A DNA stretch of 45,437 nucleotides from Acholeplasma sp. (GCA_036677365.1 JAVBWN010000008.1:1-45437), one strand, 5' to 3'. Shown: positions 1 through 15,000, counted from the stretch's first letter. Program-made: the numbers.

Positions 1-3000
1 TCATAACGCAGCGATCAATATCAACAAAGAAGGATTTAGAAAGTATAAGTTAGCATTTCTGTTATAAACAATTAAGAACCGTAGGGACTACGGGGATAGC
101 CTATTGAGTCACTGGTGGCTACACTGGTTTGGATAGGAAGCCCCCACTTCTAGTTAAGTGGTGGGTAGTTCACACATAAAAAAATACAAAATGGAAACCA
201 TCTTGTATTATTTTTATCTTAGCGAACAAATGTTAAGATTTCTTGTGTCAATCGATTGGGTTGATCAACCAGTGGTGAATGTCCACATGGTTCGAGTTTG
301 ATGTATTTTGACCCAGGAATTGCATTCAAGTTATCTAATACCATGTATTCTGGTACTGTTTTGTCTAAATTGCCCCAAAACATCAAGGTTTCTGCTTTGA
401 TTTGTTTGATCGACCCATCCCCTTTACTGTATAAATTCGGGGTCTCACTCATATTTAAGCTCGCTAATGCGAAATCAGCATCCACCAAACAACGTTGTTT
501 GAGGGTTTCTTTGATGTAAAGTTGGTTCACCTCTGGTGTTGGTTTTTGATGCGTATAGATGGTTAAATCATAAATATATGACATGAAGAATGCATTTTCA
601 GTAGCGATGGCATCCAATACTGGTTTTACTTGTAGCGGGTCGAGTGCCATCTCATCTTTAGATTTGTAACCTTCAGTGAAGATGGGTGCATTATTCTTAT
701 CTTTCTTGAAGATTGGGTAACCTTTATGGGTAGTTGAATTGATCAAAATGAGCTTTTCTGTCGATTTAGGATAGCGGCTCGCAAATTCCATCGCAACCCC
801 ACCACCCAATGACCAACCTACAATGGTTGCTTTATCGATTTTAAGTTCTGACATGAATAATTGCACATCGGTGGCGAGATTGGCCAACGAATCAAAACGT
901 TCATGGTATGATGAATCACCAAAACCACGTAAATCTAAGGCGATGACACGTACATCATCTGGTAATCGCTCAATGAGGGGTAAATAATAAACAGATGAGG
1001 ACAAATTGCCATGAATGAGGATCATCGTTTTGCCATGACCTTTTTCGAGGTAAGCGTAAGTTTCTCCGTTTTTTAATTGTACAAATTTCTTTTCCATCGT
1101 AGCCTCCTATATGACGTACTTGGTATCTTTCGCGTTGATGAACCCTAAACATAAGGTTGAGAACAACAACGGTTTTTCATACATCGATGCGTGACCTGCC
1201 CCAGGTATTTTGACCCAATGGCTGTGTTTAATGCGTTCGGCCACATATTTTTGATTGTCTACTGGTGTTAAGTAATCTTCTTCTGCTGAAACGATGAGGG
1301 TTTCAGCTTCAATCGTATGGATGGTTTCCCTGACATCATAGGATTCACTCGACAAGGTCAATCGTTCCATTTGATCGAGAAAAACATCATTTGAGAATAC
1401 AGGTACGAGGATTTTTTTACGATTTTGCATCCAAGTTTGATTGGATTCATAAAAAACTGGTGAATAAATGACTGGAATGGCGGTATTATAATAAGCTTCA
1501 CCATTACGGGTTTTAGCTGCTGCCATCCACGCTCTGCCAATATCTTTTAACCAAGGGTTGGTATAGGCAGCGGTATTAAATAAGACCAATCGGTTGACCA
1601 ATGCCTTATGTTTGATAGCAAATTGAATGGCGATTTCACCACCATAGGAAATACCGACGATGGATGCCTGTTCTAATTTTAAGTGATCGAACAATGCTTT
1701 TAACAAATCGACTTGGATTTGATGGGTATACGATTCTCCGATGAGCTTATCGGACTGACCTTGGTCAAAGAAATCCACCCGAATCAAACGGTTGTTTGCT
1801 TTAAATGTATCGACAAAGGGTGCCCAGCTTTTGGTGGACATCATGATCCCGTTGAGGAGTATGATGGGTTGCCCACTGCCTTCATCTTCATAAAAGACTT
1901 TTTTGTCGTTAATCCAAAAATGACTCATGGAGGTACCCCGCTTTAATTGCTTCTTGGGTGAGTTGTGCTCTAAATTTAGGATGGGCAATCGAAATGAGGA
2001 GTTTACATCTTTCGCGTATATTGGTACCACGCAAACCGACCATACCATATTCAGTGACGACAAAGTCAACGTCATTTCGGGATAACGATACGGCTGCACC
2101 TGGTTTAAGCATCGAAACAATCTTAGATACCTCTTCTTTTTCACCAGTGACCGGGTTTTTCACCATGGCTGTGGAATAAAGAGCGATGAAACTGCGCCCA
2201 CCTTTGGCGTTTTGTGCGCCAACAGCGGTATCGGTTTGACCCCCAGTACCAGAAAATTGTTGGGTACCGATGGATTCGGAACAACATTGTCCACTCAAAT
2301 CGATTTCGATGGTTGAGTTGATCGATACTTGATTGTCATTTAACCCAATAATGGCTGGGTCATTGACATATTTACCGTTTAAAATCCAGCAGGATGGGTT
2401 ATCATGAATGAAATCATAGAGATCTTGTGTCCCCATGGCGAAACAAGCGATGTGTTTACCACGGTGTAATGTTTTCTTTTTACCTGTGATGACCCCCGCT
2501 TTGATGAGATTCATCATTTCGTTGGTAAACATTTCGGTATGGATACCTAAGTCTTTTTTACCATATAAAGACTTAGCGACTGCGTTTGGCATACCACCAA
2601 TACCAAGTTGAATGGTATCCCCATCGTTGATTTTTTCAGCAATCAATTTGCCAATGATCATGTCTTTTTCCGATGGTTCAATGTCAGGAATGGTAGGTAC
2701 TGGGTAGTCGGCTTTAACCAAGTAATCGACTTCACTGATGTGGACTTCTAAGTCGCCAATCGTTCTTGGAAAGTTCGGATTAACTTCAAAAATGACGATT
2801 TCAGCGGCTTCAACCATTTGTTTTTCATAAACGTTCGAAGTCGATAACGAGATATAACCATGTTCGTCAGGCATGCTCGCAGCGGTGACGAAAATGCGCG
2901 GTTTTTTATAAAATAAACGTTTATGACCTGCCAGATGCAAGTGGTTAGGGATAAACGAGATATTGCCATGGGGATGTACTTTTCTTAAAACATTGGTATA

Positions 3001-12000: not shown

Positions 12001-15000
12001 GTCTTAACGTTGATATTAAAAATTCACAATATGAAAAAAAGCATCATAAAAAACGCTTGTATTTTGAAGCTTGGTGCTATACAATGAAATCGGTGATTAC
12101 TATGAACAAAGAATCGTATCGTTATCCAAAGACCACCTCAGGCATTAAAACATTCAATAAAATTGTATCTACAGGCAAAAAGCTATTTGCGAAAAATGGT
12201 TATCAATCGACTTCCATCAATGATATCATCGCTAAATCCAAAATTGCCGCAGGTACTTTTTATATTTACTTTGACAGTAAATTGGCTTTATATCTATATA
12301 TTCTCGACTTGTATCGCGTTTCTATCCGAAAAGCCAGTGCCGATGCAACCAAGGGTTTAACACATCGATATGACATCGAACGTGCAGGGATCAAAGCCTT
12401 CATTTCCTATGCATTAAAAGACCCACTTGCCTATCGAATCATATGGGAATCCCTGTTTGTTGACTTTGAAATATTCAAGAACTACTATGAAAGCTTCGCA
12501 GAATCCTATATCAAGCATTTGAAAGAATACGTTGATAAAAAGGAAATCAGAGCAGATTTGGACTTAGAAACCCTATCTTATACACTCATGGGTATATCCA
12601 ATTTCGTAGGGTTACAAATCATATTTAAGAAAGATGTTCAACCCGCTGAAATCGATCGAGTCATCGATGAAGCTATGAGTATTTTAGACCGTGGCATTTT
12701 CGTAAAATAATTGTGACAATATGAGATATTATTCATTATAATTAACTACCAATTTTTACATAAATTTATTCAAAAAATACCGCCATCAACTGGCGGTATT
12801 ATTTTTGTCTTTGTCAGCCTCTCTGCGGGCTTTCATCTCTGCTTCAAGTTCGAGTCTTAAGCGTTCTTTCTCCGCTTTGATCCAAATCTCTTTTTCAGTT
12901 TCATGTTTCAATAACATTTTTTCTTCTTGAGCGGCTCTTACCATCTTTAAGAAATTGATGAGTTCATGCATCAAGATGAAGAGTAATAAAACGATGATTA
13001 CGAGGAACACAACATTTTTATAGTTCAAGGTAATGTTCCCTACATCCAACAACATAAAATGAGAAACGACAATACCAATAAAATTTTCTTCAGTGACAAA
13101 ACCAGCATCAACAGATGGGTTATTATCACCTTTCGTGATTAATCCCTCACTCGTTGCTTCGATTGCCCTATGAACGATATTTTTATCGGTTCGAAAAGCG
13201 ATGATGGGTTCTTCACCTTCCAAGACACTTTCATAAACGGAATCATAGGAAACGTAACGAATGATGATAAATTCACCCGTCATGATGGTGGGTTCCATTG
13301 ACCCTGACCCAACCACCGAATAGGTGTGGTTGAATATCTTTAAATATCTGTTTTCTTGTAATGCCAATGTCCCTAGTAATAATAAAAGGATGGATGCCAA
13401 GAAGAAAAATACTGTGAATACCGTCATCGATATTTTTATGATTTTTTTCATCTAGATCCCCCCTTTTATTTTATTCGGATTCATTGTCACCTACAGGTGT
13501 TTTGGTCTCTTTTGGTAGGCCATCTTTTTTGAGTTTTTCGATGTCTTTTTCAGACTGTTTTTGAATATCTAGCAAGGCTTTTTCTTGACGTTTAGCCATC
13601 GTAAGTTTGAGTTTTTCAAACTCTTTCAATAGTTTTTCTTGTTCTTTTTGACGTTGAAGTTTAAGTTTCTTCATCATTCGATCGTGTTCAATCTTGGCTT
13701 TCTTACGCAAGTTTTGAACTACCAAACGATACTCAGCCTTGGCTTTCTTTTGAGCTTCGGTAATTGCCAATTTTTCTTCTCTTTCAAGTTTCTTAATTTG
13801 TTTAGCCTGTTCTTTTTCAATGGCTTCACGTTCTGCTTGAAAGTGTTTATCCAGTGTAGCAATCTTTTGATCCAATTGGCTTTGTAAGGTTTGTTTTAAG
13901 TTATTAATGAGTGCATTATTTTCTTCAATTGCCTTTTGAGTCTCTGAAGTGATATTTTCATCGACTTGTTTCTTTTCATTGGTTAAAGCTTCACGGTTTT
14001 GGTTGACCAGTTCTAAATTATCCGCCAACATTTGTGCTTCTTTAGCCGCGATGTCTTTTTGTTCTTTTAAGGCCGCATCAATCTTAATGCGTTCAGCTTC
14101 ATCTTCGGTCTTCTTACGGTTCATCAAGATGAGGCGTTGATTCGCCGCTTCAATGTCTTTCATCAATTTGCGTTCTAAACGAATGGCATTATTGTAGTCG
14201 ACTTCTTTGGTTTCACGAATGATTCTCGCAATTTTGGCTTTTTCTTTCGAAACTTCTAGATTTTTCTCAACGTCATCGTCTTTGACCATGCGAGCAAAGT
14301 AATCATCATTTTCTTCGAGTTCGAAATGGTGTTTAAATATGGCATTTGATATTGAGATGGTATCACGTAATGCACGTTTTAACCCAACTTCATAGGTAGA
14401 GCTGCGTTCAACCTCTTCATCCACACGTTTTTTAAATATCTTGATATTTTCTTGTAAGAAGTATTGGTTGATACGTTCATCTTCAACCACGATGGGCTCT
14501 GGCGTATCGACAATATCATTGACATGAATATTGGCAATCTTAAATGCCTTTTTGATGATTTCTTTTTCGACAATTTCATCGTAAGATGGCTTTCTAACCC
14601 CTTGGTTAAAAGCAACCATCGTGAATGTATTGAGTGCTAAGCGTTCAACCGCATCTTGATAAGACCGGTCGAATGTTAAGTCTTTTTCTTTCACTGTAAC
14701 ATCGTATGCCAACGTATTATATCTGTCCAAGAATAGCCATAAGACATAACAATTTCTAAAATCAACGTTCTTTAAAATGACGTTGGTTTGCATGATTGGT
14801 GGCAATACTTTCTTTTCACCAGCCATGATGGTCATGAATGGTGAATTTCGAATCGAGGTTACACGTTTAGATAAGTATTCAACACGTTCCAGAATACCTT
14901 TGTTGTATATATTGATGGATTTATCTTCTAAGTCTTCCTTGAACACAACATCGAGGTTTAAATCGACTTCAAGGTCACTGATGTGAAAGGTTGACGTGTA

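What a model noticed while it worked through the whole genome (the two positions that open the first line are those of the whole stretch)
219..12710. PHB/3-hydroxybutyrate scavenging operon in a bacterium without PHA synthase
An 11-gene operon joins a thiolase, a PhaB-like reductase, a KAS III-like enzyme, a LIV-type ABC importer, a CoA transferase, a second hydrolase and an intracellular PHA depolymerase, although the genome has no PHA synthase. It fits uptake and fermentation of (R)-3-hydroxybutyrate oligomers released from other cells' PHB, linked to MaoC and Bcd/Etf (C14:155485-158792) for butyrate.
Evidence so far: g371 passes the equivalog cut of NF050089 (338 bits, cut 300; call 119). 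Close homologues in 37 of 101 order genomes (113). All enzyme and transporter genes stay together in 13 of 16 fetched loci, with the TetR/MaoC or Bcd-Etf genes adjacent in several (117). No class III PhaC over cut in 10 of 10 genus genomes (122) and no PhaC/PHB family in pfam.tsv (217).
(Added by a program. Inside this text positions count along the whole contig: contig position 1 is position 1 of the stretch shown here. "Call 12" and the like, gene names such as g00115 and contig names such as C1 are that model's own, and its searches are not shown. The text may have been shortened before it was handed on; [...] marks where a part breaks off. The agent that wrote the report below was given it as the finding of a first reader that could run no searches.)

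Follow-up and report, generated by a model that had tools for sequence, protein, structure and literature searches.

The report
Hydroxybutyrate-ester uptake and fermentation operon
A wall-less anaerobe that makes no storage polyester (PHB) carries a conserved, co-regulated gene set that most likely imports small PHB fragments released by other microbes and ferments them to acetate and butyrate, using an unstudied enzyme that may save the energy of the ester bond.

Summary
The operon is real: 11 co-oriented genes plus a divergent TetR; all 11 together in 28 of 39 fully visible related loci; no PHA synthase in this genome, in 121 order genomes or in 50 further carriers. New here: (1) a conserved palindromic operator heads the operon, the distant maoC-bcd-etf unit and ackA (14 of 17 carriers, 0 of 12 non-carriers); (2) the same thiolase-reductase-MaoC-Bcd-Etf module (reductase 73% identical) sits in Ilyobacter polytropus, which ferments monomeric 3-hydroxybutyrate but not PHB, there with a monomer permease instead of ABC importer, hydrolases and KAS III-like enzyme; (3) that enzyme has a ChlB3/CerJ-type Cys-His-Asp acyltransferase triad and lacks FabH's Asn. 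Best reading (0.55): import of (R)-3-hydroxybutyrate oligomers or esters, release as 3HB-CoA, fermentation to acetate (and butyrate). Corrections: the PhaZ-like gene is not core (29 of 39), MaoC was not found in 7 of 31 carriers, no secreted depolymerase was found, and the substrate is untested. This scan noted the system before in at least six other genomes; my paper searches found no description.

The parts
11852..11880 (-). sigma70-type promoter, TTGACA-17-TAGAAT (11 of 12)
   Evidence: same spacing to the operator in most related loci; RNA contigs of two studies end at 11822 and 11806 (weak hint)
11876..11889 (-). cre-like (CcpA/LacI-type) site overlapping the -35 box; 12 of 14 positions fit the recalled Bacillus cre consensus
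   Evidence: core pattern in 38 of 51 upstream regions; shuffles mean 1.3, max 5; best CcpA-like protein C1:41582 at 292 bits, below the cut of 442
11823..11842 (.). palindromic operator RTGAAY-N4-RTTCAY just downstream of the -10 box (repressor position), probably bound by the divergent TetR
   Evidence: 44 of 51 upstream regions, shuffles mean 0.07, max 2; top genome-wide hit with a matrix trained on other genomes
12057..12710 (+). TetR-family regulator, divergent (start more likely 12084 or 12102)
   Evidence: PF00440; in 38 of 39 loci; 56% paralog in front of maoC on C14
10542..11750 (-). acetyl-CoA C-acetyltransferase (thiolase)
   Evidence: TIGR01930 472 bits, cut 240; catalytic motifs present; 57% to the I. 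polytropus module thiolase
9810..10529 (-). NAD(H)-type (R)-3-hydroxyacyl-CoA dehydrogenase / acetoacetyl-CoA reductase (SDR), orthologue of A. laidlawii 'FabG' PDB 4NBT
   Evidence: 4NBT E 1.5e-119; 4NBT matches the SDR of the A. laidlawii copy of this operon bar two residues in the aligned part; Asp36 invariant in 32 rows; one clade with the Ilyobacter SDR, apart from the FAS FabG
8690..9724 (-). KAS III-like enzyme (PRK06840): Cys119, His271, Gly298-His299-x4-Asp304; predicted acyltransferase / ester thiolase
   Evidence: (NRCC 80 of 80; YGHxGxxD in all listed), model pLDDT 96 with FabH fold; colinear with ChlB3 His296/Asp301
7726..8688 (-). LivH-like ABC permease
   Evidence: PF02653; below the LivH and UrtB cuts
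6678..7718 (-). LivM-like ABC permease
   Evidence: PF02653; below the LivM and UrtC cuts
5866..6681 (-). LivG-like ABC ATPase
5156..5863 (-). LivF-like ABC ATPase
3301..5121 (-). lipoprotein substrate-binding protein (HAAT/Peripla_BP_6) on a stalk of two Big_3 domains; start probably 5091
   Evidence: far below the LivK cut (41 vs 477 bits); best fold hit a fatty-acid-binding protein, 4N03, but tied in TM-score with amino- and aromatic-acid binders
1909..3231 (-). family-I CoA transferase, nearest to 4-hydroxybutyrate CoA transferases; HTEM glutamate motif kept
   Evidence: 63 of 64; below the butyryl-CoA:acetate CoA-transferase cut (291 vs 675)
1107..1925 (-). core alpha/beta serine hydrolase (GISYG, Asp, His), close relative of the metagenomic esterase MGS-M2 (PDB 4Q3L)
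   Evidence: E 2.5e-87; in 39 of 39 loci
219..1097 (-). Bacillus-type PHB/3HB-oligomer depolymerase homologue (GWSLG, Asp, His; no signal peptide)
   Evidence: NF050089 338.5 > 300; PDB 8YNV E 3e-76; 44% to a B. cereus-group copy
183..209 (-). terminator-like hairpin closing the operon
   Evidence: RNA contigs of two studies start at 222 and 246 (weak hint)

Best explanation
An inducible catabolic operon for soluble esters of (R)-3-hydroxybutyrate, most likely PHB-derived dimers and short oligomers freed by other organisms. Steps: (1) the HAAT-type ABC system imports the ester (inferred); (2) the two serine hydrolases cut it to shorter pieces and monomer (family-level inference; the Bacillus relative of one is a shown PHB hydrolase); (3) the CoA transferase makes CoA thioesters at the cost of acetyl- or butyryl-CoA (inferred); (4) the KAS III-like enzyme, through a Cys119 acyl-enzyme, moves a 3-hydroxybutyryl unit from the ester onto CoA, so the ester bond energy is kept as (R)-3HB-CoA (active-site type shown, reaction inferred, about 0.4 within this model); (5) the NAD-type SDR and thiolase give two acetyl-CoA, and PduL/AckA give acetate and ATP; (6) where MaoC and Bcd/Etf are present they turn a second 3HB-CoA into butyrate as electron sink. 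The TetR holds the operon and maoC-bcd-etf off until an inducer appears and also has sites at ackA; a cre-like site would silence it on sugars. Shown: gene content, conservation, operator, motifs, absence of PhaC. Inferred: substrate, inducer, every reaction.
For: Importer, CoA transferase, core hydrolase, SDR and KAS III-like gene together in 36 of 39 loci. Operator in 44 of 51 upstream regions, before C14 maoC, and before ackA in 14 of 17 carriers versus 0 of 12 non-carriers; pduL 6 of 18 versus 0 of 10. MaoC-Bcd-Etf lie inside or beside the operon in 11 of 39 loci. The genome has no crotonase and no full-length (S)-3HB-CoA dehydrogenase domain, so C4 flux runs through the (R)-route, the stereochemistry of PHB. 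[quoted passage not shown] This genome has its own AtoDAE cluster on C16, so the ABC operon is likely for something other than free monomer. 2 3HB to 2 acetate + butyrate yields -59 kJ (PMC10096456), about one ATP by substrate-level phosphorylation per two monomers (textbook inference), too little to pay ABC import of monomers but enough for oligomers. Complete FAS II cluster elsewhere. KAS III-like triad matches the acyltransferase ChlB3. All 35 order genomes with the KAS III-like gene over cut also match NF050089. RNA libraries of four studies hold the operon.
Against: No enzyme of this operon has been tested on 3HB esters here. The PhaZ-like gene is missing from 10 of 39 loci and 8 of those 10 genomes lack a full-length copy; five order genomes have it without the KAS III-like gene; deleting the Bacillus gene did not stop PHB breakdown (PMC7236355, passage), so the family label is weak on physiology. 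MaoC not found in 7 of 31 carriers. No PF10503 secreted depolymerase. The binding protein's fold does not name a ligand. The CoA transferase is nearest to 4-hydroxybutyrate enzymes. The ackA and pduL sites lie upstream of the -35 box, not in repressor position, so the sign of control is open; in this genome the pduL site scores only 11.9. The same palindrome precedes an ArsR gene and resembles the CzrA/SmtB operator (recalled), so the binding protein is not proven to be the TetR. Carriers are kin, so the 14/17 versus 0/12 contrast overstates significance. That the Ilyobacter plasmid cluster is its 3HB pathway is inferred; its chromosome was not searched.
Confidence: 0.55

Rival explanations
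1. Same catabolic logic, different substrate: another short-chain ester or acyl compound (an acetoacetate, crotonate, 4-hydroxybutyrate or 3-hydroxyvalerate ester, a lactone, a short acylglycerol) that ends as a C4/C5 (R)-3-hydroxyacyl-CoA.
For: The core hydrolase is an MGS-M2-type esterase, not a named depolymerase; the CoA transferase is nearest to 4-hydroxybutyrate enzymes; top fold hit of the binding protein is a fatty-acid binder; distant KAS III-like relatives (33-38%) sit with an AMP-ligase, MaoC and a Liv importer but without the PhaZ-like gene in Bacillus, Brevibacillus and Halobaculum.
Against: All 35 order carriers also hold an NF050089 match; SDR clade shared with a 3HB fermenter; no crotonase for longer chains; PHB is the commonest environmental (R)-3-hydroxyacyl ester (general knowledge).
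Confidence: 0.22
2. Biosynthetic reading: thiolase and reductase make (R)-3HB-CoA and the KAS III-like acyltransferase stands in for PhaC, making 3HB oligomers (store, osmolyte or electron sink) that the hydrolases and importer recycle.
For: Gene order thiolase-SDR-KAS mimics phaA-phaB plus synthase; thioester-to-ester transfer is the favoured direction and is what CerJ does (PMC9573744); no PhaC in any carrier searched; ackA sites in a possible activator position would fit diversion of acetyl-CoA.
Against: An importer is in 38 of 39 loci; cre-like site on the -35 box points to repression by sugar, the opposite of storage control; Asp36 marks an NAD-type enzyme; the Ilyobacter module is catabolic by physiology.
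Confidence: 0.12
3. High-affinity scavenging of free 3-hydroxybutyrate (or crotonate/acetoacetate); the hydrolases and KAS III-like enzyme are accessory.
For: Downstream module equals that of a monomer fermenter; HAAT importers often carry small carboxylates.
Against: Core hydrolase and KAS III-like gene are the most constant members (39 of 39); a separate AtoDAE monomer route exists on C16; ABC import of a monomer costs more ATP than its fermentation yields (inference).
Confidence: 0.08
4. The database annotation is right: FabH plus FabG for fatty-acid synthesis beside a branched-chain amino-acid importer.
For: Names in NCBI/JGI and PDB; FabH fold.
Against: The catalytic Asn of FabH is replaced by His, with an invariant Asp five residues on; true fabH and fabG lie in a full acc-fab cluster on C14; Liv proteins fail their equivalog cuts.
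Confidence: 0.03

Closest known systems
3-hydroxybutyrate fermentation of Ilyobacter polytropus (cluster ILYOP_RS10785-10740 on pILYOP01); I. delafieldii PHB fermentation (title seen in a reference list only)
   Same: thiolase, NAD-type SDR (73%), MaoC, Bcd, EtfBA, CoA transferase, TetR; products acetate and butyrate
   Different: Ilyobacter pairs the module with an AtoE monomer permease and AtoDA; here an ABC importer, two hydrolases, a family-I CoA transferase and a KAS III-like enzyme stand in front
Bacillus thuringiensis intracellular PHB depolymerase PhaZ (NF050089, PDB 8YNV/8YNW)
   Same: full-length match, lipase box GWSxG, over the family cut
   Different: 44% identity; here in a PhaC-less genome and inside an importer operon, whereas the B. 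cereus-group gene stands alone
KSIII-like acyltransferases ChlB3 and CerJ (PDB 7EQI, 3S3L); DpsC
   Same: FabH fold with Cys...His-x4-Asp (Cys119/His299/Asp304 versus Cys113/His296/Asp301)
   Different: about 20% identity; keeps the FabH-position His271 too; no ACP or polyketide genes; catabolic context
A. laidlawii NADH-preferring 'FabG' (PDB 4NBT) and esterase MGS-M2 (PDB 4Q3L)
   Same: direct orthologues of two operon genes
   Different: both were solved as isolated enzymes under other names; cofactor and substrate data are recalled, the papers could not be read
PHB thiolysis by Cupriavidus necator PhaZa1 (recalled)
   Same: CoA-dependent release of 3HB-CoA through a cysteine acyl-enzyme, the reaction proposed here
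   Different: unrelated fold, acts on the cell's own granules

Membership tests
FabH (KAS III) | Cys-His-Asn triad | tested here: not met
   Gly298-His299 aligns to the GN motif of FabH; TIGR00747 94.6 bits, cut 292
FabH (KAS III) | thiolase/FabH fold | tested here: met
   Z 38-39, rmsd 2.0-2.6 to BioZ and FabH; Foldseek TM 0.84
PRK06840 / NF005308 | score over the curated cut | tested here: met
   468 bits, cut 315
CerJ/ChlB3-type acyltransferases | Cys-His-Asp triad with His-x4-Asp spacing | tested here: met
   G298 and D304 invariant, H299 nearly so in 46 diverse rows; equal-length match 296-340 to ChlB3 293-337 puts H299/D304 on H296/D301
CerJ/ChlB3-type acyltransferases | closest structural neighbour | tested here: inconclusive
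   ChlB3 Z 35.8 and CerJ Z 35.5 rank below BioZ and FabH at 38-39
CerJ/ChlB3-type acyltransferases | acyl transfer between thioester and hydroxyl or thiol | not testable with these tools
   needs an assay
intracellular scl-PHA depolymerase (NF050089) | score over cut; lipase-box Ser, Asp, His; no signal peptide | tested here: met
intracellular scl-PHA depolymerase (NF050089) | mobilises the cell's own PHB granules (PHA synthase present) | tested here: not met
   no PhaC in this genome or in 121 order genomes
intracellular scl-PHA depolymerase (NF050089) | hydrolyses PHB or 3HB oligomers | not testable with these tools
   needs an assay
phaCAB / class III-IV PHA synthesis operon | PhaC | tested here: not met
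LIV-I branched-chain amino-acid importer | LivF/G/H/M/K equivalog cuts | tested here: not met
   all five below cut; HAAT superfamily membership met
classical clostridial butyrate pathway (thl-hbd-crt-bcd-etf) | (S)-specific Hbd and crotonase | tested here: not met
   PF00378 none; PF02737 only partial Rossmann hits
Ilyobacter-type (R)-3HB module | thiolase, SDR of this clade, MaoC, Bcd, EtfBA | tested here: met
   split over C8 and C14 but under one operator
CcpA regulon | cre site plus CcpA orthologue | tested here: inconclusive
   cre-like site enriched; best protein 292 bits, cut 442; consensus recalled

The most novel reading that the evidence does not exclude
The PRK06840 enzyme is a FabH-fold ester thiolase: it transfers 3-hydroxybutyryl units between oligomer esters and CoA. 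Run forward it lets anaerobes keep the ester-bond energy of scavenged PHB fragments, making a widespread guild of wall-less bacteria the oligomer consumers of sludge and sediment; run backward it is a PhaC-independent oligo-PHB synthase.
Probability: 0.33. Interest if true: 0.85.

Novelty: new variant of a known kind. Interest (0 to 1): 0.62.

Why it matters
Anaerobic PHB turnover is known from the physiology of two Ilyobacter species, but genes for taking up and activating its fragments are not described in the papers I could search. If right, this assigns a function to a common, very conserved 'FabH' family (median 75% identity across 80 loci; over cut in 50 of 349 genomes of the phylum sample, and 5 of 300 of the clostridial class sample), reinterprets two solved enzymes (4NBT, 4Q3L) as parts of one pathway, gives markers for bioplastic-fragment consumers in digesters and sediments, and offers a CoA-dependent ester-cleaving or ester-forming catalyst. 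It is directly testable, since cultured Acholeplasma and Proteiniclasticum species carry the operon.

Tried and rejected
Complex prediction of the KAS III-like dimer with the SDR gave no verdict (score 0.00). Fold and sequence searches of the binding protein named no ligand. Atlas look-ups of the KAS III-like enzyme and the core hydrolase returned only automatic names. Paper searches for MGS-M2/4Q3L, Acholeplasma with PHB degradation and A. laidlawii FabG found nothing useful; three primary papers were not held, so cofactor and substrate data for 4NBT, MGS-M2 and B. thuringiensis PhaZ are recalled or second-hand; no supplements were read. Habitat list (sediment, plastic, bioreactor, sludge, groundwater, algae) is not used as evidence for the substrate. 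RNA contigs cannot give strand or level, and no DNA run was laid beside them. The 'TetR2' query was an antisense translation made in error; its hits were ignored. Operator hits at the ArsR gene (C12:157203) and inside an ORF (C30:136050) are treated as look-alike or chance; shuffled genomes gave 0-3 hits at 17 bits or more against 6 seen. A membrane-anchored hydrolase on C12 (199249-200247) was considered as the missing outer depolymerase: no depolymerase family and no operator. Fatty-acid synthesis and branched-chain amino-acid import were rejected as above. Rnf or hydrogenase for reoxidising NADH was not searched.

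
Full report
Observation. Eleven genes lie head to tail on the minus strand from 11750 to 219, with gaps of -17 to 85 nt, and a TetR gene diverges at 12057-12710. The closest named relatives are Paracholeplasma, Acholeplasma and Izemoplasmatales records. The genome (99.86% complete) has no PHA synthase; TIGR01836, which also rings the class I enzyme of the Caulobacter control, found nothing in 121 order genomes or in 50 genomes behind related loci (50 of 80 loci given). A full acc-fabH-fabK-fabD-fabG-fabF-fabZ run on C14, read from the ORF sequences, covers fatty-acid synthesis.

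Conservation. Of 80 related loci, 39 show at least 2.6 kb upstream and 9.5 kb downstream of the KAS III-like gene. In these, the KAS III-like gene, CoA transferase and second hydrolase are in 39, SDR and TetR in 38, the Liv genes in 37-38, thiolase in 33, the PhaZ-like gene in 29, MaoC/Bcd/Etf in 10-11; all eleven in 28, all but thiolase and PhaZ in 36. Carriers include A. laidlawii, Clostridium, Proteiniclasticum, Anaerocolumna, Sphaerochaeta and Treponema. In the order sample the KAS III-like gene is over cut in 35 of 121 genomes and all 35 also match NF050089, which has five more matches without it. Of ten genomes whose locus lacks the PhaZ-like gene, one has it over cut elsewhere, one just under, six have only a partial match to a different 356-aa hydrolase and two nothing. 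MaoC was found in 24 of 31 carriers and 2 of 16 others. So the core is importer, CoA transferase, second hydrolase, SDR and KAS III-like enzyme; the 'depolymerase' and the butyrate branch are frequent add-ons.

Regulation (new). A near-consensus promoter sits at 11880-11852 and a terminator-like hairpin at 209-183. Just behind the -10 box is the palindrome RTGAAY-N4-RTTCAY, found in 44 of 51 upstream regions (49 related loci, the window, the C14 maoC region; shuffles mean 0.07, maximum 2), mostly 39-42 nt after TTGAC. A matrix trained on 48 sites from other genomes gives six hits at 17 bits or more in this genome (shuffled genomes 0-3): the operon, maoC-bcd-etf, ackA, a pyrophosphatase gene, an ArsR gene and one intragenic place. 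Upstream of ackA the site is present in 14 of 17 carriers and 0 of 12 non-carriers; upstream of pduL in 6 of 18 and 0 of 10; upstream of the pyrophosphatase in 7 of 18 and 0 of 12, the last two only within the genus. Kin are not independent, the site at ackA lies upstream of the -35 box so the sign is open, and the palindrome resembles the CzrA/SmtB operator (recalled). A cre-like pattern occurs in 38 of 51 regions (shuffles mean 1.3) and overlaps the -35 box here; the best CcpA candidate is below its cut. RNA contigs from four studies cover the operon; in two they end at 11822 and 11806 and begin at 222 and 246, with little depth over tetR, a weak hint of one expressed unit.

A natural control (new). 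[quoted passage not shown] Its cluster reads AtoE permease, TetR, AtoDA, thiolase, SDR, MaoC, Bcd, Etf. The SDR falls inside the operon clade (99/97) and away from the FAS FabG (30 rows, two partial loci left out). That plasmid gave no hit for the KAS III-like gene or the hydrolases; the chromosome was not searched. This genome lacks crotonase and a full (S)-3HB-CoA dehydrogenase, has AckA and butyrate kinase and its own AtoDAE-thiolase cluster. The simplest reading is that both organisms share an (R)-specific 3HB fermentation, and that the operon adds a front end for an esterified form. Energetics agree: 2 3HB to 2 acetate plus butyrate is -59 kJ (PMC10096456, passage), about one substrate-level ATP per two monomers, which cannot pay for ABC import of monomers (inference).

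The enzymes. The SDR's orthologue in the A. laidlawii copy of the operon is PDB 4NBT, recalled as an NADH-preferring acetoacetyl-CoA reductase; Asp36 is invariant in 32 rows. The core hydrolase is close to esterase MGS-M2, PDB 4Q3L. The PhaZ-like protein matches B. thuringiensis PhaZ over its length, with the GWSxG box described in PMC7236355 (passages), which also reports that its deletion did not stop PHB breakdown; in a B. cereus-group genome it stands apart from the distant KAS III-like locus. The CoA transferase is nearest to 4-hydroxybutyrate enzymes. The binding protein folds as a HAAT receptor with no close ligand-bound neighbour. The KAS III-like enzyme has the FabH fold but Gly-His where FabH has Gly-Asn, and an Asp five residues on that is invariant in 46 diverse rows. 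ChlB3 and CerJ use Cys-His-Asp with this spacing for acyl transfer rather than condensation (PMC9573744, passages), and the match to ChlB3 is colinear at these residues. I had noted this motif before opening the scan's earlier notes, which say the same. Distant members (33-38%) sit with MaoC, an AMP-ligase and a Liv importer in aerobes and haloarchaea, so an (R)-3-hydroxyacyl-CoA, a CoA-activating enzyme and an importer travel with the family across domains.

Mechanism and odds. Most likely (0.55): import of (R)-3HB oligomers or esters, hydrolysis and CoA transfer, with the KAS III-like enzyme moving 3-hydroxybutyryl units onto CoA, then oxidation to acetyl-CoA and acetate and, where MaoC-Bcd-Etf exist, reduction to butyrate. 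The cell would rely on neighbours for the first cut of the polymer, since no secreted depolymerase family was found. Rivals: another short ester (0.22), PhaC-independent oligomer synthesis (0.12), monomer scavenging (0.08), fatty-acid synthesis (0.03). All reactions are inferred; content, conservation, operator and motifs are shown.

Novelty. The downstream chemistry is a known kind; the front end and the enzyme family are not described in the library searched, which lacks most subscription papers. The scan has reported this system in at least six other genomes; a word search for the operator, ackA and Ilyobacter links returned nothing. Verdict: new variant of a known kind, interest 0.62.

Noticed in passing
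window 1-175 and 44777-45337: Both contig ends look like pieces of an IS200/IS605-type tnpB element (motifs judged by eye); RNA contigs run on into several unlike flanks at 173, as for a multi-copy element.
   Followed up: no
window 12786-20753: Two signal-peptidase-I-like genes (the first passes TIGR02228) flank a coiled-coil protein and an McrB-like AAA+ ATPase, followed by three secreted proteins with SipW-type leaders; labels other than the first are by eye.
   Followed up: no
L028 12355-13187 (Acholeplasma laidlawii 8195): The core hydrolase gene carries an in-frame stop in this strain's record; matters for choosing a test strain.
   Followed up: partly
L185 1432-2502; L188 865-1935: In Clostridium and Proteiniclasticum a different 356-aa hydrolase with the same HGN and GWSMGG motifs lies beside the operon where the PhaZ-like gene is missing; possible functional replacement.
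   Followed up: partly
G000 C19:28858 (L151): The operator sits upstream of the inorganic pyrophosphatase gene in 7 of 7 genus relatives, ahead of a terminator, and not in other genera; unexplained.
   Followed up: partly
G000 C12:157203 (L152 1739-3981): A strong look-alike of the operator precedes an ArsR regulator and heavy-metal ATPase; probably that regulator's own site.
   Followed up: no
L003, L004, L005, L191: Distant KAS III-like genes sit with MaoC, AMP-ligase, Liv importer (Halobaculum, B. cereus group) and an NHL-repeat-like protein (Bacillus, Brevibacillus); a Chloroflexota plasmid has SDR, KAS III-like, CoA transferase, thiolase/OB-fold pair, hydrolase and importer, but its KAS lacks the GH-x4-D motif.
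   Followed up: partly
G000 C16:94929-99522 (L087): TetR-atoD-atoA-atoE-thiolase cluster, 60-68% identical to the Ilyobacter monomer-uptake genes; no operator hit there.
   Followed up: partly
G031, G052, G058, G057: NF050089 over cut without the KAS III-like gene over cut, in incomplete small genomes.
   Followed up: no
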